Shown piece by piece: positions 271 to 16,286 of a stretch of 64,000 nt of DNA. This DNA is from a virus: IMG/VR virus record IMGVR_UViG_3300045988_004573, positions 32,001 to 96,000 of that record. One strand, written 5' to 3'. Position numbers and translations under genes: made by a program. Numbering within the stretch: the first letter of the stretch is position 1; each line of letters opens with the position of its first letter. Under the pieces are notes generated by a model that saw only the letters and a program-made list of their open reading frames with translations, was not told where the DNA came from and did no database searches.

Positions 271-957
271 ATGGAAACTCGTAAAGTAACTATCATCAAT
301 TCCAAGACCCAGAGCCAGAAGGTAATTCAGGACTCTAAGGCTACAACTCTCGGTGAACTCAAACAGGAAATGAGGGAGAGAGGTATTGACTACACAGGCA
401 TGACTTTCTTTGAAGGTCACATGAGAGCTGAACTCAAGGATGATGCAGCTCCTCTGCCTACCAACATCCCCTATAAGGGTCAGGTAGTCAATGACTTGAC
501 ATTCATGTTGACTGCACCTGAGAAGAAGGTTAAGTCTGGTGCTATGTCAAGAGCAGAAGCCTATGCAGAAATCAAGAAGAGAGGCTTGCAGGGTGCTTGT
601 GTGGATAAGTTCGGTAAGAACTTCACACAGTGTTCCACTGCTGACCTCATCTCTCTGATTGAGAAGAACTCTACCAAGGCAGCTCCTGCACCTAAAGCTG
701 AGAAGCCTGTAGAAGTAGCAGCTCCTACTGCTCCTGCAAAGGCAGAGGAAGCTCCTGTAGCACCTGAAACTCCTGCCACTGGATGTAACTGTTCAAAGGC
801 TCTTGCTATCCTCACAGAGGCTCTCTATGAGAATGACACCATTGAGGAGGGGACCTATGATGCAGTCATGGCTACTCTCAAAGGTGGTTCTTACAATGCA
901 CCTGAGAAGATGAACAAGAGGGAGATTGATGAGATGTTTGGCTTTGTTGAAAGATAA
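271..957 (+). CDS. Hypothetical protein with an N-terminal beta-grasp/ubiquitin-like-looking domain, an Ala/Pro-rich linker and a small C-terminal domain
   Basis: 228-aa ATG ORF, followed by its own hairpin plus T-run. Residues 4-90 (KVTIINSKTQSQKVIQDSKATTLGELKQEMRERGIDYTGMTFFEGHMRAELKDDAAPLP...DLTFMLTAPEKKVKSG) follow a strand-strand-helix-strand-strand pattern like ubiquitin. This is followed by a HeH/SAP-like segment and the linker KAAPAPKAEKPVEVAAPTAPAKAEEAPVAPETPA. Confidence 0.75.
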   Translation: METRKVTIINSKTQSQKVIQDSKATTLGELKQEMRERGIDYTGMTFFEGHMRAELKDDAAPLPTNIPYKGQVVNDLTFMLTAPEKKVKSGAMSRAEAYAEIKKRGLQGACVDKFGKNFTQCSTADLISLIEKNSTKAAPAPKAEKPVEVAAPTAPAKAEEAPVAPETPATGCNCSKALAILTEALYENDTIEEGTYDAVMATLKGGSYNAPEKMNKREIDEMFGFVER

Positions 958-976
958 GGTCAGATTGAACAACACA

Positions 977-1017
977 GGTGGAGGGTGAGTAGTATGCTTG
1001 CCCTTCACCTTTTTTTT
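977..1017 (+). terminator. Rho-independent terminator after the 271..957 gene
   Basis: GGTGGAGGG (977-985) pairs with CCCTTCACC (1001-1009), giving 9 bp with one G-U. The loop is 15 nt and is followed by T8 (1010-1017). Confidence 0.7.
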
Positions 1018-1026
1018 ATACACAGT

Positions 1027-2340
1027 ATGAGTGAAGAAGTAACTAATAAGGTAAGGGAGTTATATGACAACATCATGTACTTCCCTAATAAGGTTCTTAG
1101 CATATTCAATGACTTCTTTGGAGAACAGAGAGTGGATATGCAGGGATTCTGGGGCTTTGATGAGTTCCTACGTTCAATGTCTGAGGACAGGCTTAGTTCT
1201 TTCTTCTCCAGTAAGAGTGCTGTACTTAGTAGTCCAGAGTTCAGAAGTGCCAGTAAAGAGAATAAGGCTGTCATAGAAGATATGCTTGATAATGGTGCTT
1301 TGGATAGTGCTGTAACCAGTGATGAAGCACTTGCTACATACTTCCTACCTATAATGTTTACTGCTGTAATGCAGATTATGCCACAAGGCTTCATTCTTGT
1401 GCATTTCCCTCATGTAAGGGTTACTAATGAGAATGACAGGTTTGTGGATATAAACCATCTATGGGTTAAAGTAGGCATAAAGGCAAGTGGTGCAGGCATG
1501 GGTTACTTTGCTGTAAATAGGAGTGAGTATGAACTCTCTCATATGAAGGCAGACTATATGCACAGTCATGTACCAGGAATACCATTTGATAGGCTTACAG
1601 AGTTCAAGTCTCCTTGTCTGGGCAGTGGACCTATCAGAAGTACAGTAGCTACTCTTGCAGTGGAATATGATGAGGCTATATGGCAGTTGTTCTGTCTTGA
1701 ATTGGACAAGTATGTCAGGGTTGAAAGTATCTCTGGAGTACCTTACAGGTATCTGGAGAAGATAGGTACAGGTGGTGGTACAACTAATGGAGAGACTGAC
1801 TTCTCTATGCAGTCTACCACATTCAATGACTACAATACTATATTCTCTAAAGAGGATATGAAGGACTTCGTAAGGCATCTGATAAGAGACAAGAAACTCA
1901 AGTTCAACTTCATCAGAGGAAGCTATGGCTTTGCAATGTCCTACCTTGACTATAGAATACTCATTAGTAATGAGTTCATCAAGTGGTACAACCTGAGATA
2001 TAACTTAGGAACTTCTACTGCAAGTTATAATAACTTAGTTAGTAGGGGAATACTGAAAGAATGTATCATCAACAATGGTAAGATACAGTATTTCAGGAAC
2101 ACAGGGAGAAGTGGTGAGGACTATGGCAGGTATGAGGGTGCTGAGGTGTGTGTATTCAAAGGCAGACCTATCACCATACATATAGTGGATAGTTCTACTG
2201 ATACACTTAATAAAACAGTATTAGTCAGTGCAGGTATTGCTGAGGAAATAGCTAAAGCAGTGCTTACAATAGTAAATTACAAGTATGGAAGAGAACAAAG
2301 AGAAGAAGCTGGAATTAGTACACCAGCAATCTATCTATAA
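1027..2340 (+). CDS. Hypothetical protein; candidate E2/UBC-like fold in its central region
   Basis: The ORF-track start at 985 is a GTG inside the terminator, so the start was re-set to ATG 1027 (MSEEVTNKV). The central region reads as predicted strands (GFILVHFPHVRVTN, FVDINHLWVKVGIKA, GYFAVNRSEY), then YMHSHVPGI, then FKSPCLGSGP followed by a helix. This is reminiscent of the UBC HPN...Cys arrangement, but no motif is decisive. Confidence 0.7.
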   Translation: MSEEVTNKVRELYDNIMYFPNKVLSIFNDFFGEQRVDMQGFWGFDEFLRSMSEDRLSSFFSSKSAVLSSPEFRSASKENKAVIEDMLDNGALDSAVTSDEALATYFLPIMFTAVMQIMPQGFILVHFPHVRVTNENDRFVDINHLWVKVGIKASGAGMGYFAVNRSEYELSHMKADYMHSHVPGIPFDRLTEFKSPCLGSGPIRSTVATLAVEYDEAIWQLFCLELDKYVRVESISGVPYRYLEKIGTGGGTTNGETDFSMQSTTFNDYNTIFSKEDMKDFVRHLIRDKKLKFNFIRGSYGFAMSYLDYRILISNEFIKWYNLRYNLGTSTASYNNLVSRGILKECIINNGKIQYFRNTGRSGEDYGRYEGAEVCVFKGRPITIHIVDSSTDTLNKTVLVSAGIAEEIAKAVLTIVNYKYGREQREEAGISTPAIYL

Positions 2341-2341
2341 G

Positions 2342-3487
2342 ATGGTAATCCCTCAGGAGGTTGAGAAGAAGATAAGACTTCTGTGTAGGGAGATACACAA
2401 TGTGGAATGGTCTGGAGTACTGTTCTACAAGGTAAGTGGTTCATTTGAGGATAAGTCTTTGACAATCACTTGTGTAGACTTGTTCCAGATGGATGAAGGT
2501 ACTGGAGGATATACTGAATATGATATGTCCCCAGATGTCATGGGTTATATGGTAGACCATCCTGAGCTGCTTGATGCAGGTGTATATCAGGGACTTATCC
2601 ATAGTCATAACAACATGGCTACATTCTTTAGTGGTACTGATACAGCTACCTTGCAGTCAGAAGGCAGTGATATGAACCACTTTGTATCACTGATTGTGAA
2701 CAATGCTGGTAAATATACAGCAGGAGTGACTAGGAAGGCTAAGCTCAAACAGACAGTCAATGAGGAGTTCACCTATCCCACATGGGGTGATGAGAGAGTA
2801 TCTGGCAATAGAACCTTTACAGTAGAGAAGGAGTATATCCAATGGTTTAACCTTGACATTGAGATTGAAGGAGTCAGTAATGACTTTGAAGAGGAAATGC
2901 TTGCAAGGATTAAGGAGATTAGGGCAACTAAGTCTAGTAAGAGGAACATTGAGAATGTCAGAAGTCCTTACTATGGCGGAGGCTATAAGAAAGAGGAATA
3001 TGGCAAGCACCCAATAGGTTCTTATGGTAATCCTAAGGGATATACAGTACCTGCTGGACCAGCTAATACTCCTATCAAGAGAGAGGTTAAGCAACCTACA
3101 CTCTTTGATGATACTAATGAGGAGTTTATGATTGACTATGAGAAGTTCAAACTCAATGAGGAGATAGTGGACTGGGTGGTTAAGCAGACCATCACTTGTA
3201 GTGTAATCATTCCTAACTCCAGTAACATTGATGTAGAGAAGTGGGCTAGGTCTATGGATTCTCTGTATAAGAAGAGATTTGCAGATAAGAAGGAGTTTGA
3301 AGCCTTTGCATCAAACTTTGTAGACTTTGTGGTTAACTATACAGAAGACCCAGAGGCTGCTGCTTTCTTGGATGCTACAGAGATGGCTGCTGTATTGGCT
3401 TATCAGGTAAGAGAGAAACTGAACACCCTGCCTAAGAATGAATGGCTGGATGCTTGGATGGAATTGTATGATGATTATATACTGTAA
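2342..3487 (+). CDS. JAB/MPN (JAMM) metallopeptidase-domain protein with a roughly 250-aa uncharacterised C-terminal region
   Basis: The JAMM signature is complete: upstream Glu in HNVEWSGVLFY, then H-S-H-NNMATFF-S-GT-D (HxH-x7-S-xx-D) at nt 2600-2641. ATG 2342 lies 1 nt after the upstream stop; the track start at 2285 overlaps the previous gene. Confidence 0.85.
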   Translation: MVIPQEVEKKIRLLCREIHNVEWSGVLFYKVSGSFEDKSLTITCVDLFQMDEGTGGYTEYDMSPDVMGYMVDHPELLDAGVYQGLIHSHNNMATFFSGTDTATLQSEGSDMNHFVSLIVNNAGKYTAGVTRKAKLKQTVNEEFTYPTWGDERVSGNRTFTVEKEYIQWFNLDIEIEGVSNDFEEEMLARIKEIRATKSSKRNIENVRSPYYGGGYKKEEYGKHPIGSYGNPKGYTVPAGPANTPIKREVKQPTLFDDTNEEFMIDYEKFKLNEEIVDWVVKQTITCSVIIPNSSNIDVEKWARSMDSLYKKRFADKKEFEAFASNFVDFVVNYTEDPEAAAFLDATEMAAVLAYQVREKLNTLPKNEWLDAWMELYDDYIL

Positions 3488-3489
3488 GT

Positions 3490-4662
3490 ATGGAAGATAT
3501 AGTAAGTGAAGTAACTGCTCAGGCTCTTAATCAGTTAGCTGATAGAAGCGTAGAGCAGGCTCGTCAAGAGTTTGAAAGAGCTATGGAGGAAGATACCAAT
3601 GCACTTCCTATCAATGCCTTTGGTGGAACTCTGTCTCCTGTAGGTTCTGCTGGAGAGTTACACTATATATGTACTCTTCTTAGAGACCATAGGGCAGAGC
3701 TGTCAGTTGATGAATTGATAGATAGAGACAATCTTGTCTATAATGTGCAGATAAATGAGGAGAATGGTCAGCACCATGACTATTGGGTCAATGACTATTG
3801 GCACAATCAGTTACTCATAGCTGCTGGAGTTATGGATGAGGTAATGCCTGAGGAGGCTCAGTTGAGTCCAGAAGAGGAAGCAATGTTAGCAGCAGCATTG
3901 GAGAGTGAGCATCAAGAGATACCTGTAAATTCACAGACAATCACTGTAGATGAGACTACAAGTAGATTCAGTGGTGCTATATGGTATGAGCAAATACAAC
4001 AGCAGACTGTCACTTTGGCAGGTGTTGGAGGTATTGGCAGTTATGTAGGTTTCCTGTTAGGTAGATTGAAGCCTCAGAGACTTATCATATATGACCCTGA
4101 CAGGGTTGAGACTGTCAATATGTCAGGTCAGTTGTATGGTCAGACAGATGTTGGTAATTATAAGAGTTTAGCCCTTGCCAATATGGTCAGAAACTATGCT
4201 AACTATAACAATATAGTGGCATTGAATGACAGGTTTGAGGCTAACTCTGAGGCTACTGACATTATGATATGTGGCTTTGACAATATGACAGCCAGAAGGA
4301 CATTCTATGAGAAGTGGAAGCAGAAGGTACTGTCCTATCCTGCTGGTAGTGATAACAGGAAGAAGTGTTTGTTCATAGATGGAAGATTGGCAGCAGAAGA
4401 GTTCCAAGTACTGTCCATTCAAGGAGATGATGAAAGAGCTATGGTGGAGTATGAGGATAAGTGGCTGTTCAGTGATGCAGAAGCTGAGGAGACTATATGC
4501 TCCTATAAGCAGACTACTTTCATGGCTAACATGATAGCATCAGTGATGGTCAATGTCTTTGTGAACTTCGTGGCTAACCAGTGTGGTCCTATCATAGACA
4601 GGGATGTTCCTTTCTTCATATCCTATGATGCAAGTACAATGTTTACTAAAGTTGAAATGTAA
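3490..4662 (+). CDS. ThiF/MoeB/E1-like adenylyltransferase-domain protein with a roughly 160-aa unknown N-terminal region
   Basis: Rossmann loop LAGVGGIGSYVG (GVGGIG at nt 4021-4038). Also IIYDPDRVETVNMSGQLY (D-x-D-x-V-x3-N-x-x-x-Q of E1/ThiF, with the usual Arg replaced by Gly), GNYKSLALA, CGFDNMTARRTF (DN...R) and a downstream Cys in ETICSYKQTTF. The start lies 2 nt after the JAB stop. Confidence 0.85.
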   Translation: MEDIVSEVTAQALNQLADRSVEQARQEFERAMEEDTNALPINAFGGTLSPVGSAGELHYICTLLRDHRAELSVDELIDRDNLVYNVQINEENGQHHDYWVNDYWHNQLLIAAGVMDEVMPEEAQLSPEEEAMLAAALESEHQEIPVNSQTITVDETTSRFSGAIWYEQIQQQTVTLAGVGGIGSYVGFLLGRLKPQRLIIYDPDRVETVNMSGQLYGQTDVGNYKSLALANMVRNYANYNNIVALNDRFEANSEATDIMICGFDNMTARRTFYEKWKQKVLSYPAGSDNRKKCLFIDGRLAAEEFQVLSIQGDDERAMVEYEDKWLFSDAEAEETICSYKQTTFMANMIASVMVNVFVNFVANQCGPIIDRDVPFFISYDASTMFTKVEM

Positions 4663-11969: not shown

Positions 11970-12470
11970 ATGGAATTTGTATTGAAAATAGTGTTTGTGT
12001 TGCTACTAGTAGGCATTGCTGCCATAGTAGCACATTTCGTTGATTTGGCTAGGAAGAAGATTTCCTATGATAGGATGTCATTCAGAGAGACTATGGACTT
12101 ATGTGAGCTTCCCATAGTAACATTTATGAATAATGGAAAGAAATTGAATTTCCTCTTGGACACTGGTGCAAGTAAATCTGTTATTCATAGTGGGGCTTTG
12201 GATGGGCTTACTTATAAGAGCCTCAATAAGTCTGGTGATGTATATGGTATAGATGGGAAAAGGCAAGATGCCTCATTTATCAGTATGTCTATAGGATATA
12301 GAGGTAAGGATTATAGTGAGGAGTTCCAATCTATTGATATGAGCATCCCATTCAGTAATCTAAAGTCTGACTTTGGTGTTAATCTGCATGGCATTCTGTC
12401 AAGTACTTTCTTTCAGAAGTATAGGTATGTACTGAACTTTGATGAACTGGTAGCTTATTCTATGGTATGA
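11970..12470 (+). CDS. Membrane-anchored retropepsin-like (clan AA) aspartic protease
   Basis: N-terminal hydrophobic helix (FVLKIVFVLLLVGIAAIVAHFV), then FLLDTGASKSVIHSG with D-T-G at nt 12159-12167, and a later HGILSSTFF (ILG-x-D-like). Confidence 0.7.
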   Translation: MEFVLKIVFVLLLVGIAAIVAHFVDLARKKISYDRMSFRETMDLCELPIVTFMNNGKKLNFLLDTGASKSVIHSGALDGLTYKSLNKSGDVYGIDGKRQDASFISMSIGYRGKDYSEEFQSIDMSIPFSNLKSDFGVNLHGILSSTFFQKYRYVLNFDELVAYSMV

Positions 12471-12736
12471 AAGACTTGATTAAACTTAAGTCAAGAGGCT
12501 ATGAGGAGAACTACTTGAAGAAGCTAAAGAAACCTGATGGTTCAGAGTCAAAGACTTATGTACTCAAGGTATCTACTCCCTATCTTAGATGTGGGGAAGT
12601 GGAAGGAGGCAGAAAGTTCATTGACCTATCAGGGGGTCCTATGATTGTAGTAGGTGCTTATCTTGAGGAAGCTGAGGCAGTAGTCAAATCAATAGACTTC
12701 ACTGTAGGTTATGGCTACACTATAACATTTGAGTAA
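12467..12736 (+). CDS. Hypothetical small protein
   Basis: 89-aa ORF with ATGA overlap upstream and TAATG overlap with the polymerase start. Confidence 0.55.
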   Translation: MKDLIKLKSRGYEENYLKKLKKPDGSESKTYVLKVSTPYLRCGEVEGGRKFIDLSGGPMIVVGAYLEEAEAVVKSIDFTVGYGYTITFE

Positions 12737-14857
12737 TGGATGAGTGGTTTGAAGAAGGAAAGCATGAAGCTATCAAGTACTATGGTGAGCAGATATACTA
12801 TGTGTCTGGAGTTGCAAACTTATTTAGTGATGCAGAGATAGGATGTCCTTATAAGAATATATCAGTAAGGGAATCACTGGAGCTTCTCAGTACACTAAAG
12901 GTTGTAGGATTGGATAGTGAGACTAGAGGTACAGAGATATGGCAAGGTCAGCTGCTGTTACTTCAATTAGGTAACAAGCACTTTCAAGTAGTCATTGACT
13001 GTACCACTGTAGATGTCAAGCTATACAAGGAGTTCCTTGAGAGTGATAGGCTTTTCATAATTCATAATGCCAAGTTTGACCTAAGATGGTTATATAAGGA
13101 GGGTATTGTAATCAGAAATGTATTTGATACTTTCCTTGCAGAGAAGATACTGTTCCTGGGATTTCCACCAGGAATAGTGTCACTCAGCTTGCAGGCTTGT
13201 TGTGACAGGTATCTTAATGTCTACCTTGACAAGACAGTCAGAGGTAAGATTAACTATGGTGTCACTGATGAGGTAATAATCTATTCAGCCAATGATGTTG
13301 TGTTCCTTGAAGATGTCATGGAAGCACAGTTAAAGCAGATAGAGGCTAGAGGTCAGAGAGTCGCCTTAGAGATAGAGAACAGGTTTGTGAGAGTATTGGC
13401 TTATATTGAGTTCTGTGGTATAAGGCTTGACATTGAAAGGTGGAAAGCCAAGATGGTTAAGGATGCTGAAAGGCTGAGAGTAGCAGAGCAGAAACTCAAT
13501 GATTGGGTTGTAGAGTATGTGATGTCCAAAGGAGACACAGATGCTATAGCCTATGATGTTCAGACTAAGAGAGGAAAGGTAAAGAGAGCTAAGGGTACTA
13601 TAGGTAAGTATGTAGCTATAGACCCACAGCAGAACCTCTTTGAGGAGAACAAGCCAAGATGTATCATCAACTGGAACAGTAACAAGCAGGTTATACCATT
13701 GTTTGAGGAGTTAGGGTTCAATGTATGGGCTAAAGACAAGAAGACTGGAAAGATGAAGAAGTCAGTAGACTCAAAGCTGCTTAAACAGCAGTTGGATAAG
13801 AGTCCTCTGGCTAAGTTATATCTTGATTACTCTGGTGAGTTCAAGGTAGTTACTTCATTTGGTCAGAACTTCTTGGATGCAGTCAATCCTGTTACAGGGA
13901 GAATACACCCTACATTCAATCAGATGATGGACACTGGCAGGTTGAGTTGTGGTAAAGGAGGAAAGAAAGGTGGAGGTAAGACTAAGGATGATGACTTTGC
14001 TGAGGAAGAGCAGACTGAGCAGGATGCTGATGTTATCATAGCAGTAGATAAGAGTGTGAATGTTCAGCAGTTGCCATCTGATGCAGAGACTAGAGCTTGC
14101 TTCATACCTGATAAAGACCACATGCTAGTTGATTGTGATTATGGAGACCAAGAAGGTCATGTCTTTACTGAGTTAAGTCAGGATAAGGCATGGATTGATT
14201 TCTATAATGACCCCAATGAGAGAGATGGTCACTCCTTTGTAGCCAAGATGATATTCTCTGATGAGCTAAAGGATATACCAGAGAAGGAAGTAAAGAAGAA
14301 GAGGAAAGACTTGAGGGATGCTGCAAAGCCAGCAAGGTTTACCTTTAATTATAATGGGACAGCCAATGCCTTAGCAGCTAACACAGGTAAGTCTCTTGAG
14401 TTCTGTGAGTTGTGCTTTAAGAAGTACTTCTCAGCATTCAAAGGTATAGCCAGCTACTTTAGAGTGAGTAAGGCTAATATGTGGAAAAGAGGTTATATCC
14501 TAATCTCAAAGTACACTGGACTGAGGGCTTACATCTATGACTATCCTATACTGAAAGGCATAGAGAGAAGAATCAAGAGAATGGGTCAGGAGTTCTGGGA
14601 TTCCTATAGGAAAGCCAGAGACTCTGGTCAAGTCATTGATGATGTCCCTGCTGTGGTTCTTCAACAGATGGCAAGGAAGTTTGCCAATGGAGAACCTATG
14701 GAGGCTATTGCTATAAGGTATGAGTATAAGGTCAAGAAGGGTAAGAAGATTGAGACAAAGTATATTGATATTAACAGGGAAACTGTATTGATTAAACTCT
14801 GGAAGCATCTGGCAAAGAGAAGGTCATCATCTGAGAACCAGTCCTGTAACTATCCCT
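12736..14857 (+). CDS. polA: Family A DNA polymerase with 3'-5' exonuclease, exon 1 (predicted 5' splice site after T14857)
   Basis: Exo I VVGLDSET, Exo II IHNAKFDLRWL, Exo III YSANDVVFL, motif A LVDCDYGDQEGH and motif B RDAAKPARFTFNYNG. The conserved N-x-P-x-QGTAAD block is cut after SCNYP, and the frame then ends in the non-conserved tail LIVGAYSGDII*. Confidence 0.85.
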
Positions 14858-14914
14858 TAATTGTGGGGGCATATAGTGGTGACATTATATGAAAACTCAG
14901 TGAATTGCTGGAAG

Positions 14915-15011
14915 GCTAAGGAGAAATCTATGCTAATCAGCAGCCAAGACTTGTAGAAATGCAAGTAAGGTTCAGAGACTAATCAAAGTAAGCTAAGGAG
15001 AAATCTATGCT
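14915..15011 (+). repeat. Perfect 20-bp direct repeat GCTAAGGAGAAATCTATGCT (14915-14934 and 14992-15011) inside the intron
   Basis: The two copies were read directly from the sequence. They lie 77 nt apart and flank the P7-like GGTTCAGAGACTAA string. Confidence 0.9.
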
Positions 15012-15081
15012 GAAATGGGCAAGAGTGCTGAGTATCTCTTAATTATTTATTTACCCTATTGGATAATTAAGAAATAATTTG

Positions 15082-15089
15082 TATCTTTG
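15082..15089 (+). promoter_or_regulatory. Bacteroidota-type -7 promoter box (TAnnTTTG) for the intron HNH gene
   Basis: TATCTTTG lies 25 nt upstream of ATG 15115. Confidence 0.5.
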
Positions 15090-15114
15090 TACTATAAATT
15101 AAAGATAACAAATT

Positions 15115-15690
15115 ATGAAGAGATGTTCAAGTTGTGGTAAGTTAAAGGATGAATCAGAGTTTTATCATTATAAGTCATCAAAGGATGGCTTGACTCACCA
15201 GTGTAAGCAATGTATGTCTGAATATAGGGCTTCTAAAAGAGAGCATTATAAAGAGTATATGGCTTATAGGAGAGAGGTGGATAATGAAACTATAAAAGCT
15301 AATAGGAGAAAGCATTATAGGAATCATCCTGAGAGTAGAATGTTAATGGCAGCCAAGCAAAGAGCTAAGAATCAAGGATTAGAATTTAACTTGACTATAG
15401 ATGATATAGTCATCCCTGATAAATGCCCTTTGTTAGAAGTTCCTTTTGTTGCTGGAGAAAAAGGTAATTATGAATATACACCCTCCCTTGATAGAATAGA
15501 CCCTACTAAGGGATATATTAAAGGGAATGTATGGGTAATTACTAAAAGAGCAAATACAATGAAGAATAATGCAACAAGGGAGGAATTATTAAAGTTTGCT
15601 GATAACATCTATAAATATTTTGGAGATAATGATATAGTCCAACCTATTGAGAAATCAATAGAACTACAGGATAAAGAGCCTGTAGGGTAA
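15115..15690 (+). CDS. Intron-encoded HNH homing endonuclease with an N-terminal zinc finger
   Basis: CSSCGK...HQCKQC, CPLLEVPF, and SLDRIDPTKGYIKGNVWVITKRANTMKNN (H-N-N type core). It is a paralog of the 20570..21115 gene and sits between the two polymerase exons. Confidence 0.85.
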   Translation: MKRCSSCGKLKDESEFYHYKSSKDGLTHQCKQCMSEYRASKREHYKEYMAYRREVDNETIKANRRKHYRNHPESRMLMAAKQRAKNQGLEFNLTIDDIVIPDKCPLLEVPFVAGEKGNYEYTPSLDRIDPTKGYIKGNVWVITKRANTMKNNATREELLKFADNIYKYFGDNDIVQPIEKSIELQDKEPVG

Positions 15691-15699
15691 TAAATATTG

Positions 15700-15953
15700 C
15701 ACAAGGTACAGCAGCAGCTATGACTAAGATTGCTGGTATAATGTACTTTGACTACTTGGTAGAGTCAGGACTTATATTCAAGGTATTGATACCTAATGAT
15801 GTCCATGATGAGTATCTGATAGAACCACCTACTGATATAGCTGAACAGGAAGCTAGGAAACTTAGTGAATGTATGGAAGCATCAGCAGCTATGTTCTGTC
15901 AGTCAGTCAAGATTAAGGCAGTTCCTGAAATTGCAGACCATTGGGTGCATTAA
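15700..15953 (+). CDS. polA: Family A DNA polymerase, exon 2
   Basis: In frame upstream of the track ATG (15720) the sequence reads QGTAAA with no start codon, completing the polymerase QGTAAD block. It continues MTKIAGIMYFDYL...IPNDVHDEYLIE (motif C, VHDE) and ends ADHWVH* (compare Pol I ...W-x-x-AH*). Confidence 0.8.
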
Positions 15954-15956
15954 ACT

Positions 15957-16286
15957 ATGGAAGCTTGGAGAATAGCTATTCCTATAGCAGTATTCATATT
16001 ATGTACTATAGGTGCATGGTATGCAATAAAGCTAAGGTGGAAAGAGCTGAGAGACAGAATGTATGTATATCCTAAGAATGGTCATCAATATATGCCACTT
16101 TATAGATGCAGGATGAAATGTCCTGCATCTGGTGAGTGGTTTGATGCACTAATCTATCAGGATTGCAAGACTGAGAACCTGTATGTTAGGGATAGGAAGG
16201 ACTTCCTTGACAAGTTTGTTAAACTAACTGAATGGGAAAATGACAAGGGAAGAGGCAGTAATGGGCTTGATACTCATAGTGATTAG
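15957..16286 (+). CDS. Hypothetical protein with an N-terminal membrane anchor
   Basis: 109-aa ORF with the hydrophobic segment IAIPIAVFILCTIGAWYAI near the N-terminus. Confidence 0.55.
   Translation: MEAWRIAIPIAVFILCTIGAWYAIKLRWKELRDRMYVYPKNGHQYMPLYRCRMKCPASGEWFDALIYQDCKTENLYVRDRKDFLDKFVKLTEWENDKGRGSNGLDTHSD

What the first reader, a model, noticed from the sequence alone, without database searches (positions are those of the whole stretch)
14858..15699. Group I intron with an HNH homing endonuclease splits the family A DNA polymerase within the conserved N-x-P-x-QGTAAD block
Exon 1 ends its conserved sequence at ...SCNYP and then runs into 11 non-conserved codons and a stop. The frame of the downstream ORF reads QGTAAA upstream of its first ATG, with no possible start codon. 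It continues through motif C (VHDE) to a Pol I-like C-terminus. The 842 nt in between contain strings that match group I core elements as I remember them from the Tetrahymena intron: GGTTCAGAGACTAA versus GUUCACAGACUAAA, and GATATAGTC versus GAUAUAGUC. GACTA/TAGTC could form P7. Other elements are a GNRA-capped hairpin, a second 3' hairpin, a possible P1 with a U-G pair at T14857, and a terminal G at 15699. Splicing at exactly these positions restores the frame (NYP-S-QGTAAA). Introns with HNH endonucleases in phage family A polymerases are established (SPO1/SP82 I-HmuI/II), and introns have been reported in crAss-like polymerases.
Basis: partly seen in the sequence, partly recalled or inferred. 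Interest (0 to 1): 0.7.

Follow-up and report, generated by a model that had tools for sequence, protein, structure and literature searches.

The report
Mobile group I intron in crAss-like polymerase
The DNA polymerase gene of this gut crAss-like phage is interrupted by an 842-base self-splicing group I intron that carries its own DNA-cutting enzyme; this is a well-known kind of selfish element, here with an unusual histidine-less (PacI-type) nuclease and an insertion site not among those I found listed for phage polymerases.

Summary
Rfam's group I intron model hits 14848-15081 (65.3 bits, cutoff 50, E 2.6e-14).

Joining 14857 to 15700 gives a 791-aa family A polymerase. It aligns without a gap to the uninterrupted cr126_1 enzyme. 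A roughly 95%-identical metagenomic genome (L037) lacks precisely bases 14858-15699.

A hand-built P1-P10 structure holds up on an unfitted alignment of ten related introns:
- 92% of cells pair, against 31-40% when partners are slid.
- 36 of 77 pairs change on both sides.
- 0 of 500 shuffles reach the observed values.

The guide sequence co-varies with the first exon-2 bases. The ORF (15115-15690) sits in the P8 loop and reads through P8', J8/7, P7', P9 and P9.1.

The "HNH" label is right only at superfamily level. No Pfam HNH model matches any of 75 family members, and no histidine is conserved. Both a sequence profile and a confident AlphaFold model find PacI, the tyrosine-using beta-beta-alpha-metal enzyme, as the closest solved structure.

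Between genomes the intron and ORF are 95-99.8% identical while the flanking exons are only 67-77% identical, and ORF dN/dS is 0.02-0.25. That pattern indicates active lateral spread.

Verdict: real, well supported, and a new member of a known kind. Interest is moderate.

The parts
12736..14857 (+). polA exon 1 (3'-5' exonuclease domain plus most of the family A polymerase domain); ends ...AAC TAT CCC T
   Evidence: ORF list. Pfam DNA_pol_A_exo1 4e-18 and DNA_pol_A 7e-43 on the spliced product. 78% identical and colinear with cr126_1 PolA.
14858..15699 (+). Group I intron, 842 nt
   Evidence: Rfam RF00028 at 65.3 bits. Precisely absent from the 95%-identical L037. Covariation.
14854..14869 (+). 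P1 hairpin: CCCU|UA (14854-59) paired with UGGGGG (14864-69). U14857-G14866 is the wobble pair at the 5' splice site.
   Evidence: Sequence. Rfam places the consensus splice-site U at 14857. Recovered 6/6 in an unconstrained fold. L045 has UCCU/GGGA and cr116_1 has UCCGAU/GUCGGA.
14861..14865 (+). 5' part of the internal guide sequence (UUGUG). It forms P10 with exon-2 bases CACAA at 15700-15704.
   Evidence: Co-varies with exon 2 in relatives: CUGUG/CACAG (L031), CUUGAU/GUCAAG (L032, L034), UGAAU/AUUCA (L045), UGUAU/AUACA (L046), UGGAU/AUCCA (L019), UUUGU/ACAAA (cr116_1).
14870..14891 (+). P2, 9 bp with a GUGA loop
   Evidence: 7 of 9 pairs change on both sides; 96.7% of cells pair.
14895..14902 (+). 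P3 5' strand (ACUCAGUG); pairs with 15026-15033
   Evidence: 4 of 8 pairs change on both sides; 96.3% of cells pair.
14906..14942 (+). P4 (14906-11 / 14937-42) enclosing P5 (14915-33). P5 has a GAAA loop and a CUAAG/UAUG motif resembling the 11-nt GAAA-tetraloop receptor.
   Evidence: Rfam alignment. P4 is invariant. The inner P5 stem has 2 of 3 pairs changed on both sides. The receptor reading is an inference from established knowledge.
14943..14971 (+). P6/P6a
   Evidence: All 5 inner pairs change on both sides.
14972..14981 (+). J6/7 plus the P7 5' strand (UCA GAGACUA). A14976 is bulged and G14977-C15639 is the presumed guanosine-binding pair.
   Evidence: Matches the Rfam consensus GUUCAaAGACUA. 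Invariant in 10 of 10 relatives.
14991..15011 (+). Extra hairpin between P7 and P3' (at the P7.1/P7.2 position). It is a near-exact copy of the P5 hairpin.
   Evidence: Sequence. Recovered 5/5 in the unconstrained fold. Replaced by other hairpins in L032, L034, L036 and L046.
15026..15033 (+). P3 3' strand (UGCUGAGU)
15034..15039 (+). P8 5' strand (AUCUCU); pairs across the ORF with 15622-15627
   Evidence: Compensatory changes in L036 (AUCUA/UAGAU) and L045 (AUCUU/AAGAU). Entirely different sequences in L019, L046, L013 and L048.
15037..15116 (+). Two stable hairpins in L8 upstream of the ORF. The second buries the AUG at 15115.
   Evidence: MFE -21.5 kcal/mol, z = -4.9. Dispensable: deleted in L004, L006 and L008.
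15115..15690 (+). Intron ORF, 191 aa: an N-terminal Cys4 zinc ribbon, a helical region, and a PacI-like beta-beta-alpha-metal nuclease (beta 123-127, beta 139-143, alpha 144-152). The tail, residues 171-191, is disordered.
   Evidence: PHROG 3322 'endonuclease' 2.5e-38. PacI is the best match by profile and by fold. AlphaFold2 mean pLDDT 87. dN/dS 0.02-0.25.
15622..15627 (+). P8 3' strand (GGAGAU), inside the ORF
15628..15640 (+). J8/7 (AAUGAUA) plus the P7 3' strand (UAGUCC); this is the S element
   Evidence: Invariant in all relatives. P7 is recovered 5/6 in the fold.
15644..15661 (+). P9, 7 bp with a GAAA loop
   Evidence: 5 of 7 pairs change on both sides, and the GAAA loop is kept in all relatives.
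15664..15685 (+). P9.1, 7 bp
   Evidence: 7 of 7 pairs change on both sides.
15697..15699 (+). UU of a possible P9.0 (with A15641-A15642), and the terminal guanosine G15699
   Evidence: A terminal G is present in all 12 relatives examined. P9.0 is weak: 69% of cells pair.
15700..15953 (+). polA exon 2: (S)QGTAAA ... VHDE (motif C) ... C-terminus, stop at 15951-15953
   Evidence: Aligns through the junction to solved family A polymerases (NYPVQGTCAD...VHDE).

Best explanation

Splicing (inferred):
- In the pre-mRNA, the guide sequence UUGUG-GGGG (14861-14869) pairs with the end of exon 1 (CCCU, with U14857-G as a wobble pair) to form P1.
- Exogenous guanosine, bound at the P7 G14977-C15639 pair, attacks after U14857.
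- The guide then pairs with CACAA (15700-15704) to form P10.
- The terminal G15699 enters the G site and the exons are ligated.
- The result is ...N-Y-P-S-Q-G-T-A-A-A..., one 791-aa polymerase.

The intron ORF:
- The P8 loop carries a 191-aa ORF whose last 23 codons double as P8', J8/7, P7', P9 and P9.1.
- Its product is a PacI-type beta-beta-alpha-metal nuclease. By homology, D126 and N147 hold the metal, and invariant Y134 takes the place of the usual histidine.
- It most likely acts as a homing endonuclease. It would cut or nick intron-less polymerase alleles during co-infection, so that repair copies the intron together with a few flanking exon bases.

What is shown and what is inferred:
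- Shown: the structure, the boundaries, the presence/absence polymorphism, the higher identity of the intron than of its host gene, and purifying selection on the ORF.
- Inferred: catalysis of splicing, nuclease activity, and the nuclease's target.

The overall confidence of 0.85 combines about 0.93 that this is a functional splicing intron with about 0.7 that the ORF is an active homing endonuclease.
For: - Rfam RF00028 scores 65.3 bits, E 2.6e-14. The same hit appears in 12 related loci.
- The spliced product is colinear and gap-free with intron-less cr126_1 PolA, 78% identical across NYP|SQGTAAA, and with solved Pol I-family structures.
- L037, 95% identical, aligns to window 12437-14857 and then 15700-15961. 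Its junction AACTATCCCT.CACAAGGT equals the predicted ligated exons.
- Covariation was measured on an unfitted MAFFT alignment. 92.4% of cells pair against 31-40% for slid partners. 36 of 77 pairs change on both sides against 10-14. No shuffle out of 500 reaches the observed values.
- P10 and P1 co-vary with the exon sequences.
- An unconstrained fold of the ORF-less intron recovers every helix except P3, which competes with P7 because the two form a pseudoknot.
- Between the window and L004, the intron 5' part is 95% and the ORF 99.8% identical, while the exons are 69% and 74% identical. ORF dN/dS is 0.02-0.25.
- ORF homologs down to 44% identity all sit in polA at or next to this site.
- For the nuclease: PHROG endonuclease families at 2.5e-38 and 1e-35; PacI is the best PDB match by profile (E 0.0084) and by fold (probability 1.00, E 1.2e-3); D126, Y134, N138, N147 and K150 are invariant.
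Against: - There is no RNA evidence here: no junction reads and no splicing assay.
- P4, P7 and most of P8 are invariant, so covariation says nothing about them.
- P9.0 is weak.
- Rfam does not reach threshold for the more diverged relatives L036, L048 and cr116_1.
- The similarity to PacI is remote (14% identity, TM-score 0.34-0.44), and only one of PacI's two Cys4 zinc sites is present.
- Nuclease activity and its target are untested.
- The ORF start codon is buried in a hairpin, so expression may be low.
- Natural copies with ORF deletions exist (L008), which shows that the ORF can decay.
Confidence: 0.85

Rival explanations
1. The intron is a genuine, splicing-competent group I intron, but the ORF is no longer, or never was, an active homing endonuclease. 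It could be a decaying passenger, or a protein retained for another role such as a maturase or competition between phages. The intron would then persist mainly by vertical descent.
For: - There is no canonical catalytic histidine.
- No Pfam nuclease model matches the ORF.
- The AUG is sequestered in a hairpin.
- Deletion variants exist: L008 lacks the first 30 codons.
- Relatives are annotated as Srd or anti-sigma proteins in some phages.
Against: - The ORF is 99.8% identical between genomes whose exons are about 70% identical. That is the signature of recent transfer, not vertical descent.
- dN/dS is 0.02-0.25.
- All residues that align with PacI's metal ligands and tyrosine are invariant in 75 homologs.
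- Intron-plus and intron-minus alleles coexist within one roughly 95% lineage.
Confidence: 0.15
2. The polymerase is truly split. Two polypeptides, 12736-14892 and one starting at ATG 15720, would assemble without splicing. A free-standing endonuclease gene would lie between them, and the ribozyme-like sequence would be a relic.
For: - GenBank annotates the equivalent cr116_1 gene as two separate "DNA polymerase I" CDSs.
- Gene callers did the same on the metagenomic contigs.
- An ATG exists at 15720.
Against: - The conserved QGTAAA lies upstream of that ATG, and no start codon precedes it.
- The ribozyme helices are maintained by compensatory changes across lineages with under 50% exon identity.
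- The guide sequence tracks the exon sequence.
- The break falls inside a codon, in a contiguous active-site segment.
Confidence: 0.03
3. The intron splices but is not autonomous. Efficient splicing in vivo would need a phage or host protein cofactor, possibly the intron ORF acting as a maturase.
For: - The ORF is large and overlaps the 3' core (P8' to P9.1), so translation and folding compete.
- The intron is AT-rich (35% GC) with short P1 and P8 helices.
Against: - A complete set of core and peripheral elements is present, with plausible GAAA loop-receptor contacts.
- Phage group I introns of this general type that have been tested self-splice in vitro (PMC3428280, PMC11878797).
- ORF-deleted natural variants persist.
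Confidence: 0.1

Closest known systems
Group I introns with HNH nicking endonucleases in phage family A polymerase genes: SPO1 (I-HmuI), SP82 (I-HmuII), Bastille (I-BasI), cyanophage Pf-WMP3 (I-PfoP3I), Xanthomonas phiL7, and T7-like PhiI/W31 (I-TslI)
   Same: [quoted passage not shown] It carries an endonuclease ORF that partly overlaps ribozyme core elements. An extra hairpin lies between P7 and P3', as in subgroup IA. The first three intron bases are UAA, as noted for Pf-WMP3 (PMC3428280).
   Different: - Insertion site. The known sites are 674 (SPO1, SP82, Bastille, Pf-WMP3), 676 (phiL7) and 881 (PhiI, W31) in E. coli Pol I numbering (PMC3428280). This intron lies in the codon between Pro and Gln of N-x-P-x-QGTAAD, about residue 848 by my recollection of Klenow N845/Q849.
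- ORF position. Here it is in L8 and reads through P8'-P9.1. In Pf-WMP3, PhiI and W31 it starts in P6a.
- Nuclease. Here it is PacI-like and lacks the histidine. It is not an I-HmuI-type HNH with NUMOD domains.
Group I introns reported in crAss-like phages (Yutin et al. 2021, PMC7886860)
   Same: The host is a crAss-like phage, a core replication gene is interrupted, and the element is recognised through its endonuclease ORF.
   Different: That paper reports introns in the Delta and Zeta groups (MCP, PolB, primase, ATP_43b) and says the alpha-gamma genomes lack such insertions. This one is in PolA of a Steigviridae/Asinivirinae-type genome; the nearest records are cr126_1 and cr116_1. In GenBank, the equivalent cr116_1 gene is annotated as two polymerase CDSs plus a hypothetical protein, with no intron feature.
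Restriction endonuclease PacI (PDB 3LDY/3M7K), His-Me finger group 20 of Jablonska et al. 2017 (PMC5714182)
   Same: It is the best solved-structure match by both sequence profile and fold. The two share an N-terminal CxxC...CxxC ribbon followed by a beta-beta-alpha-metal unit with the D-R-x-D...G-Y...N...N-x-x-K pattern. There is no catalytic histidine, and an invariant tyrosine sits in the loop where PacI's catalytic tyrosine lies.
   Different: - PacI is a 142-aa bacterial restriction enzyme that cuts TTAATTAA as a homodimer.
- This protein is 191 aa and intron-encoded, with a long helical insert (residues 31-87).
- It lacks PacI's second Cys4 site.
- Its target is presumably a long asymmetric polA sequence.
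- Identity is only about 14%.
PacI-like free-standing HNH endonucleases of lactococcal Skunavirus phages (PMC12724721)
   Same: These are phage-encoded PacI-like nucleases interpreted as homing endonucleases.
   Different: They are free-standing, and that paper states that none lies in an intron. They are also rare (2 of 268). Here the nuclease is intron-borne and tied to one polymerase site across many lineages.

Membership tests
Group I intron (Rfam RF00028) | Covariance-model score at or above the curated gathering threshold | tested here: met
   65.3 bits against 50, E 2.6e-14, at 14848-15081.
Group I intron (Rfam RF00028) | P1 formed by the 5' exon end and an internal guide sequence, with a U-G wobble at the 5' splice site | tested here: met
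   CCCU/GGGG with U14857-G14866. The U is conserved in all relatives, and P1 changes compensatorily in L045 and cr116_1.
Group I intron (Rfam RF00028) | Terminal guanosine at the 3' splice site, and P10 between the guide sequence and the 3' exon | tested here: met
   G15699. UUGUG/CACAA here, with P10 re-formed from different sequences in seven other lineages.
Group I intron (Rfam RF00028) | Conserved core P3-P4-P6 and P7-P3-P8 with the P3/P7 pseudoknot, supported by covariation | tested here: met
   P3, P5, P6 and P8 show changes on both sides. Overall 92.4% of cells pair, and 0 of 500 shuffles reach the observed values. P4 and P7 are invariant, so covariation is uninformative for them, but they match the family consensus.
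Group I intron (Rfam RF00028) | Precise excision restores a functional host gene | tested here: met
   Gap-free alignment to intron-less PolA. A natural allele lacks exactly 14858-15699.
Group I intron (Rfam RF00028) | Guanosine-dependent self-splicing activity | not testable with these tools
   Needs an in vitro transcript plus GTP, or RNA from infected cells.
Subgroup IA2 group I introns (typical of phages) | Two extra hairpins, P7.1 and P7.2, between P7 and P3' | tested here: inconclusive
   A 44-nt insert lies at this position, but it holds only one clear hairpin (14991-15011). The insert varies among relatives.
Canonical HNH endonucleases (Pfam HNH, HNH_3, HNH_4, HNH_5, Endonuclease_7) | Match to a curated HNH profile | tested here: not met
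   No HNH or His-Me Pfam family matches the ORF at E <= 0.1 or any of 75 relatives at E <= 0.01. NCBIfam gives nothing.
Canonical HNH endonucleases (Pfam HNH, HNH_3, HNH_4, HNH_5, Endonuclease_7) | Conserved catalytic histidine at the end of beta-1 | tested here: not met
   The motif is S-L-D-R-I-D, and no histidine is among the invariant or nearly invariant columns.
His-Me finger / beta-beta-alpha-metal superfamily | Beta-hairpin followed by an alpha-helix that carries the metal-binding Asn | tested here: met
   The AlphaFold2 model (mean pLDDT 87) has beta 123-127, beta 139-143 and alpha 144-152. Foldseek hits are PacI, Gme HNH, Cas9 HNH and colicin DNases.
PacI-like group (His-Me group 20, PMC5714182) | Closest similarity to PacI by sequence profile and by structure | tested here: met
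   hmmsearch gives PacI as the top PDB hit, E 0.0084, over both the ribbon and the nuclease block. Foldseek rank 1, probability 1.00, E 1.2e-3. The similarity is remote.
PacI-like group (His-Me group 20, PMC5714182) | Tyrosine in the loop between the beta strands substitutes for the histidine | tested here: met
   Y134 is invariant in 75 sequences and aligns with the Tyr of PacI's ...FEGY... segment. Its catalytic role is inferred, not shown.
PacI-like group (His-Me group 20, PMC5714182) | Two Cys4 zinc sites per subunit | tested here: not met
   Only C4, C7, C30 and C33 are conserved as a set. PacI's cysteines inside the nuclease block align with S124, I142 and T143.
Homing endonuclease (functional class) | Encoded inside a self-splicing element; presence/absence polymorphism; the element is more similar between genomes than its host gene | tested here: met
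Homing endonuclease (functional class) | Site-specific cleavage of the intron-less allele near the insertion site | not testable with these tools
   Requires purified protein and target DNA.

The most novel reading that the evidence does not exclude
The intron ORF represents an uncharacterised family of intron-encoded homing endonucleases built on the PacI-type, histidine-less beta-beta-alpha-metal active site, with tyrosine as base or nucleophile. The family would be specialised on the N-x-P-x-QG segment of family A polymerases. It would have seeded introns at four or more adjacent positions: after the Pro codon, +1, +2, and after QG. This would span crAss-like and other phages. It would add a mechanistically distinct member to the known homing-endonuclease families, and a rare-cutter scaffold related to PacI.
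Probability: 0.45. Interest if true: 0.5.

Novelty: new member of a known kind. Interest (0 to 1): 0.35.

Why it matters
**Annotation.** CrAss-like phages are the most abundant human gut viruses. Here, and in the deposited cr116_1 genome, the polymerase is easily mis-annotated as two genes plus a hypothetical protein. Recognising the intron gives the correct 791-aa enzyme.

**Ecology.** An element that is 95-99.8% identical sits in polymerase genes that are only about 70% identical. Intron-plus and intron-minus alleles also coexist within one lineage. Together these indicate ongoing DNA exchange between co-infecting gut phages. Such introns can affect competition between phages (PMC11620839).

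**Enzymology.** If the PacI-like ORF is an active homing endonuclease, it would be a tyrosine-based His-Me enzyme with a long target. That would be of some interest for understanding this catalytic variant and as a possible engineering scaffold.

None of this changes the general picture of phage group I introns.

Tried and rejected
- **Rfam's P8.** The Rfam alignment treats the local hairpin at 15038-15071 as P8. I rejected this. L004 and L006 delete its 3' half and L008 deletes more. The long-range pairing 15034-39/15622-27 that brackets the ORF is re-formed from different sequences in L019, L046, L013, L048, L036 and L045.
- **Repeat as ribosome-binding sites.** The 20-nt direct repeat GCTAAGGAGAAATCTATGCT (14914 and 14991) looks like a Shine-Dalgarno sequence plus ATG. 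I rejected that reading. Each copy is a hairpin with a GAAA loop, the inner stem co-varies, and the short frames end after 8-11 codons.
- **First GATATAGTC.** The copy at 15402 is not the S element. It lies mid-ORF, encodes conserved D97-I98-V99, and has no P8' or P9 next to it.
- **Searches that found nothing useful.** A single-sequence phmmer search of the ORF against the PDB gave only spurious ferritin and saposin hits. Pfam and NCBIfam gave nothing useful.
- **Intein.** Rejected because of in-frame stops, a frame change, and the presence of ribozyme structure.
- **PacI structure paper.** PMC2886031 could not be retrieved. Statements about the PacI mechanism therefore rest on PMC5714182, PMC3384342 and PMC4081073.
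- **Rfam on diverged relatives.** Rfam at E <= 0.001 does not detect the diverged relatives in L036, L048 and cr116_1. Their P1, P10, R/S elements and P8 were read by eye only.
- **Deposited phage genomes.** I looked for the same intron in deposited phage genomes. None holds an ORF above 60% identity, and megablast found only a 49-nt core match in cr116_1.
Full report
**1. The observation**

- The sequence is as described. The exon-1 frame reads ...SENQSCNYP, then runs through LIVGAYSGDII to TGA at 14890-14892.
- The frame of the ORF that starts at ATG 15720 is open back to a stop at 15672. It reads QGTAAA just upstream of that ATG.
- GGTTCAGAGACTAA is at 14969-14982.
- GATATAGTC occurs twice, at 15402 and 15632. 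Only the second is structurally meaningful (see section 4).
- Joining 14857 to 15700 yields a 791-aa product with ...NYP-S-QGTAAAMTK....
- Rfam's group I intron model (RF00028) hits 14848-15081 at 65.3 bits (gathering 50, E 2.6e-14). It is the only Rfam match in the 64-kb window, even at E <= 0.01.

**2. What genome this is**

- Megablast against deposited phages finds crAss-like genomes. cr126_1 (Steigviridae, Asinivirinae, Kolpuevirus) matches the polymerase at 77%, and that match ends at window 14853, four bases before the proposed 5' splice site.
- Gene order around the polymerase is dUTPase, aspartyl protease, a small protein, PolA. This is the phiCrAss001-like arrangement.

**3. Are the boundaries right?**

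- cr126_1 has an uninterrupted 789-aa PolA. The spliced window product aligns to it at 78% identity with no gap at the junction: SENQSCNYPSQGTAAAMTKIAG against SENQSCNYTSQGTAAAMTKIAG.
- The same segment aligns through the junction to solved family A polymerases (NYPVQGTCAD...VHDE).
- Four IMG/VR contigs encode the C-terminal 224 residues without interruption at 96-99% identity.
- One of them, L037, aligns to window 12437-14857 at 95.3% and continues at 15700-15961 at 95.4%. The 842 bases are therefore precisely absent from a genome of the same lineage. Its sequence at that point, AACTATCCCT.CACAAGGT, is exactly the predicted ligated junction.
- The other close intron-less alleles encode the same residues with different codons, CCA AGT CAG instead of CCC TCA CAA. 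All intron-bearing alleles of this clade carry the CCCT|CACAA version, which P1 and P10 need. That fits co-conversion of flanking exon bases during homing.

**4. The RNA structure**

From the sequence and the Rfam alignment I derived these elements:

| Element | Coordinates and notes |
|---|---|
| P1 | 14854-59 / 14864-69; U14857-G14866 wobble at the splice site |
| P2 | 14870-91; GUGA loop |
| P3 | 14895-902 / 15026-33 |
| P4 | 14906-11 / 14937-42 |
| P5 | 14915-33; GAAA loop |
| P6/P6a | 14943-71 |
| P7 | 14975, 14977-81 / 15635-40; A14976 bulged; G14977-C15639 at the position of the guanosine-binding pair |
| Extra hairpin | 14991-15011, between P7 and P3' |
| P8 | 15034-39 / 15622-27; brackets the ORF |
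| J8/7 | 15628-34 |
| P9 | 15644-61; GAAA loop |
| P9.1 | 15664-85 |
| P9.0 (possible) | AA 15641-42 / UU 15697-98 |
| Terminal G | G15699 |
| P10 | UUGUG 14861-65 / CACAA 15700-04; directly abuts P1 on the guide strand |

An unconstrained ViennaRNA fold of the intron, with L8 replaced by a tetraloop, recovers P1, P2, P4, P5, P6, the extra hairpin, P8, P9 and P9.1 completely. It also recovers P7 at 5 of 6 pairs. P3 is the pseudoknot partner of P7 and cannot coexist with it in a nested fold.

**5. Covariation**

- The ORF protein has hundreds of homologs. Every context I fetched, from 100% down to 44% identity, lies inside a family A polymerase gene. The one exception, L047, is item 5 of section 10.
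- I cut out the ORF-bearing loop from ten introns at this site and aligned them with MAFFT alone (A2).
- Counting my structure on that alignment gives 92.4% of cells paired, against 31-40% when 3' partners are slid by 1-3 columns.
- 36 of 77 pairs change on both sides, against 10-14 for the slid controls.
- The covariation score is 0.395 against 0.06-0.08, and no shuffle out of 500 reaches any observed measure.
- By helix, the number of pairs changed on both sides is: P2 7 of 9, P3 4 of 8, inner P5 2 of 3, P6a 5 of 5, P9 5 of 7, P9.1 7 of 7, P8 1 of 6.
- Further P8 support comes from more distant introns, where the ORF is bracketed by entirely different complementary strands: GUGUAAG/CUUACGC in L019, AUCUUUAAAA/UUUUAAAGAU in L046, and AUAUUUUGAUA/UAUCAAAAUA in L013.
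- P4 and P7 never vary, so covariation is silent on them.
- P10 follows the exon: CUGUG/CACAG (L031), CUUGAU/GUCAAG (L032, L034), UGAAU/AUUCA (L045), UGUAU/AUACA (L046), UGGAU/AUCCA (L019), UUUGU/ACAAA (cr116_1). Only L036 has a weak 3-bp P10.
- Natural deletions remove 15059-15112 in L004 and L006, and 15059-15203 in L008. The local hairpin that Rfam aligned as P8 is therefore dispensable, whereas the long-range P8 is kept.

**6. The ORF**

- ORF 15115-15690 (191 aa) lies in L8. Its last 23 codons are P8', J8/7, P7', P9 and P9.1, and it stops 9 nt before the 3' splice site.
- In the AlphaFold2 model (mean pLDDT 87), exactly this tail, residues 171-191, is disordered. It is also poorly conserved in the family. 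The tail therefore looks like a by-product of reading into the ribozyme.
- Pfam and NCBIfam do not recognise the protein. None of 75 relatives matches any HNH or His-Me Pfam model.
- PHROGs place it in "endonuclease" families: 3322 at 2.5e-38, 1035 "endonuclease VII" at 1e-35, and 3118 "HNH endonuclease" at 3e-14.
- The family conserves C4, C7, C30 and C33 (a zinc ribbon; some relatives carry Pfam YonG_N) and the block CPLLEVP...PSLDRID.TKGY..GNV.VIS..AN..KN. D97, C104, P105, L107, D126, Y134, N138, A146, N147 and K150 are invariant, and no histidine is conserved.
- A profile search of the PDB gives PacI (3LDY) as the best hit, E 0.0084. It aligns both the ribbon and ...VDRSDSFEGYSPQNARLACFICNRIKSN... 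to ...LDRIDPTKGYIKGNVWVITKRANTMKNN....
- Foldseek with the model also ranks PacI first (probability 1.00, E 1.2e-3). Canonical HNH domains follow at much weaker scores.
- PacI is the textbook exception among HNH enzymes. Its catalytic histidine is absent, a tyrosine in the loop takes its role, and Asp and Asn hold the single metal (PMC5714182, PMC4081073, PMC3384342).
- I therefore read D126 and N147 as the metal ligands and Y134 as the catalytic tyrosine. This is an inference from homology.
- The protein differs from PacI in three ways: it lacks the second Cys4 site, it has a long helical insert, and it is not a restriction enzyme.

**7. Mobility**

| Comparison with the window | Exon 1 | Exon 2 | Intron 5' part | ORF |
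|---|---|---|---|---|
| L004 | 69% | 74% | 95% | 99.8% |

- The comparisons with L005, L007 and L009 show the same pattern.
- ORF dN/dS is 0.02-0.25.
- Together with the intron-plus (window, L003) and intron-minus (L037) alleles in one roughly 95% lineage, this is the expected footprint of recent endonuclease-driven spread, with the protein under selection.
- The ORF's AUG is buried in the second of two stable hairpins (z = -4.9). This could limit or time its translation, but that is speculation.

**8. Comparison with what is known**

- Group I introns with endonuclease ORFs in phage PolA genes have been known since SPO1.
- The catalogued sites are 674 (SPO1, SP82, Bastille, Pf-WMP3), 676 (phiL7) and 881 (PhiI, W31) in E. 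coli numbering. In Pf-WMP3, PhiI and W31 the ORF starts in P6a (PMC3428280).
- Bastillevirinae polymerase genes often carry one to three introns with diverse nucleases (PMC11878797).
- In crAss-like phages, introns were reported for the Delta and Zeta groups (MCP, PolB, primase), with the alpha-gamma genomes said to lack them (PMC7886860).
- The present intron lies at about residue 848, between P847 and Q849 by my recollection of Klenow numbering. It sits in PolA of a Steigviridae-type genome, the ORF is in L8, and the nuclease is PacI-like.
- PacI-like phage nucleases have been noted only as rare free-standing genes (PMC12724721).
- These are differences of detail within an established class.

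**9. Verdict**

- It is a new member of a known kind.
- Splicing and nuclease activity remain inferred.

**10. Side observations**

1. cr116_1's rIIA-like gene carries another group I intron (80.8 bits). Its P3-P7 core shares a 49-nt stretch at 98% identity with this one.
2. cr116_1's polymerase is deposited as two CDSs flanking a 44% homolog of this ORF. By eye it has P1, P10 and S elements and is inserted one base further 3'.
3. Related introns occupy four adjacent positions around this codon.
4. L034's polymerase has three intron signatures.
5. L047 may be a free-standing version of the ORF.
6. L031's ORF has an in-frame stop in table 11.

Noticed in passing
L002 (cr116_1, MT774389) 3207-4340; window 14900-14948: The rIIA-like gene of cr116_1 is split by a different group I intron (Rfam 80.8 bits at L002 3935-4203). 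An annotated "intron-encoded endonuclease" lies 5' of the core. Its P4-P5 region is 98% identical over 49 nt to the window's intron, so ribozyme modules are shared between introns in different genes.
   Followed up: partly
L049 (cr116_1, MT774389) 858-3833: The deposited cr116_1 genome annotates "DNA polymerase I" as two CDSs, with a hypothetical protein between them that is 44% identical to the window ORF. By eye the gap has P1 UCCGAU/GUCGGA, P10 UUUGU/ACAAA and the S element AAGATATAGTCC, so it is an unannotated intron. It is inserted 1 nt 3' of the window's site. Rfam does not reach E 0.001 there.
   Followed up: partly
L036, L045, L046, L019 (after the Pro codon); window, L031, L032, L034 (+1); L049 (+2); L013, L048 (after the QG codons): Related introns with related ORFs occupy at least four adjacent insertion positions within about 9 nt of the same polymerase motif, in different phage lineages.
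   Followed up: partly
L034 about 660-3620: One polymerase gene carries three pairs of group I R/S core elements, two of them detected by Rfam at 72.3 and 56.2 bits. A LAGLIDADG ORF sits in the first and the PacI-like ORF in the second. This is a multi-intron polymerase in a relative.
   Followed up: no
L047 2380-3100: A 51%-identical ORF homolog lies just after an apparently complete polymerase reading frame. It is followed by a second copy of the polymerase's last codons (..FCKR..). No R/S core elements are present. This may be a free-standing version with a duplicated target.
   Followed up: no
L031 2501-3076: The 81%-identical ORF has an in-frame stop at codon 32 under table 11, although the database protein is 191 aa long. 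This may reflect stop-codon recoding in that contig, as described for some crAss-like phages.
   Followed up: no
window 14914-14933 and 14991-15010: A 20-nt direct repeat, GCTAAGGAGAAATCTATGCT. Each copy folds into a hairpin with a GAAA tetraloop and a CUAAG/UAUG internal loop that resembles the 11-nt GAAA-tetraloop receptor. L9 is also GAAA in all relatives, which suggests L9-P5-type tertiary contacts.
   Followed up: partly
window 15037-15116: Two stable hairpins lie between the P8 5' strand and the ORF. The second sequesters the ORF's AUG (MFE -21.5 kcal/mol, z = -4.9). Both are missing from the natural deletion variants L004 and L006.
   Followed up: partly
window ORF 15115-15687 against T4-type Srd: The nuclease half of the ORF matches PHROG families annotated "Srd anti-sigma factor" (8e-9) and "decoy of host sigma70" (1.7e-5). 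Foldseek also finds "anti-sigma factor" proteins of T4-like phages. Those proteins may contain the same PacI-like fold.
   Followed up: no
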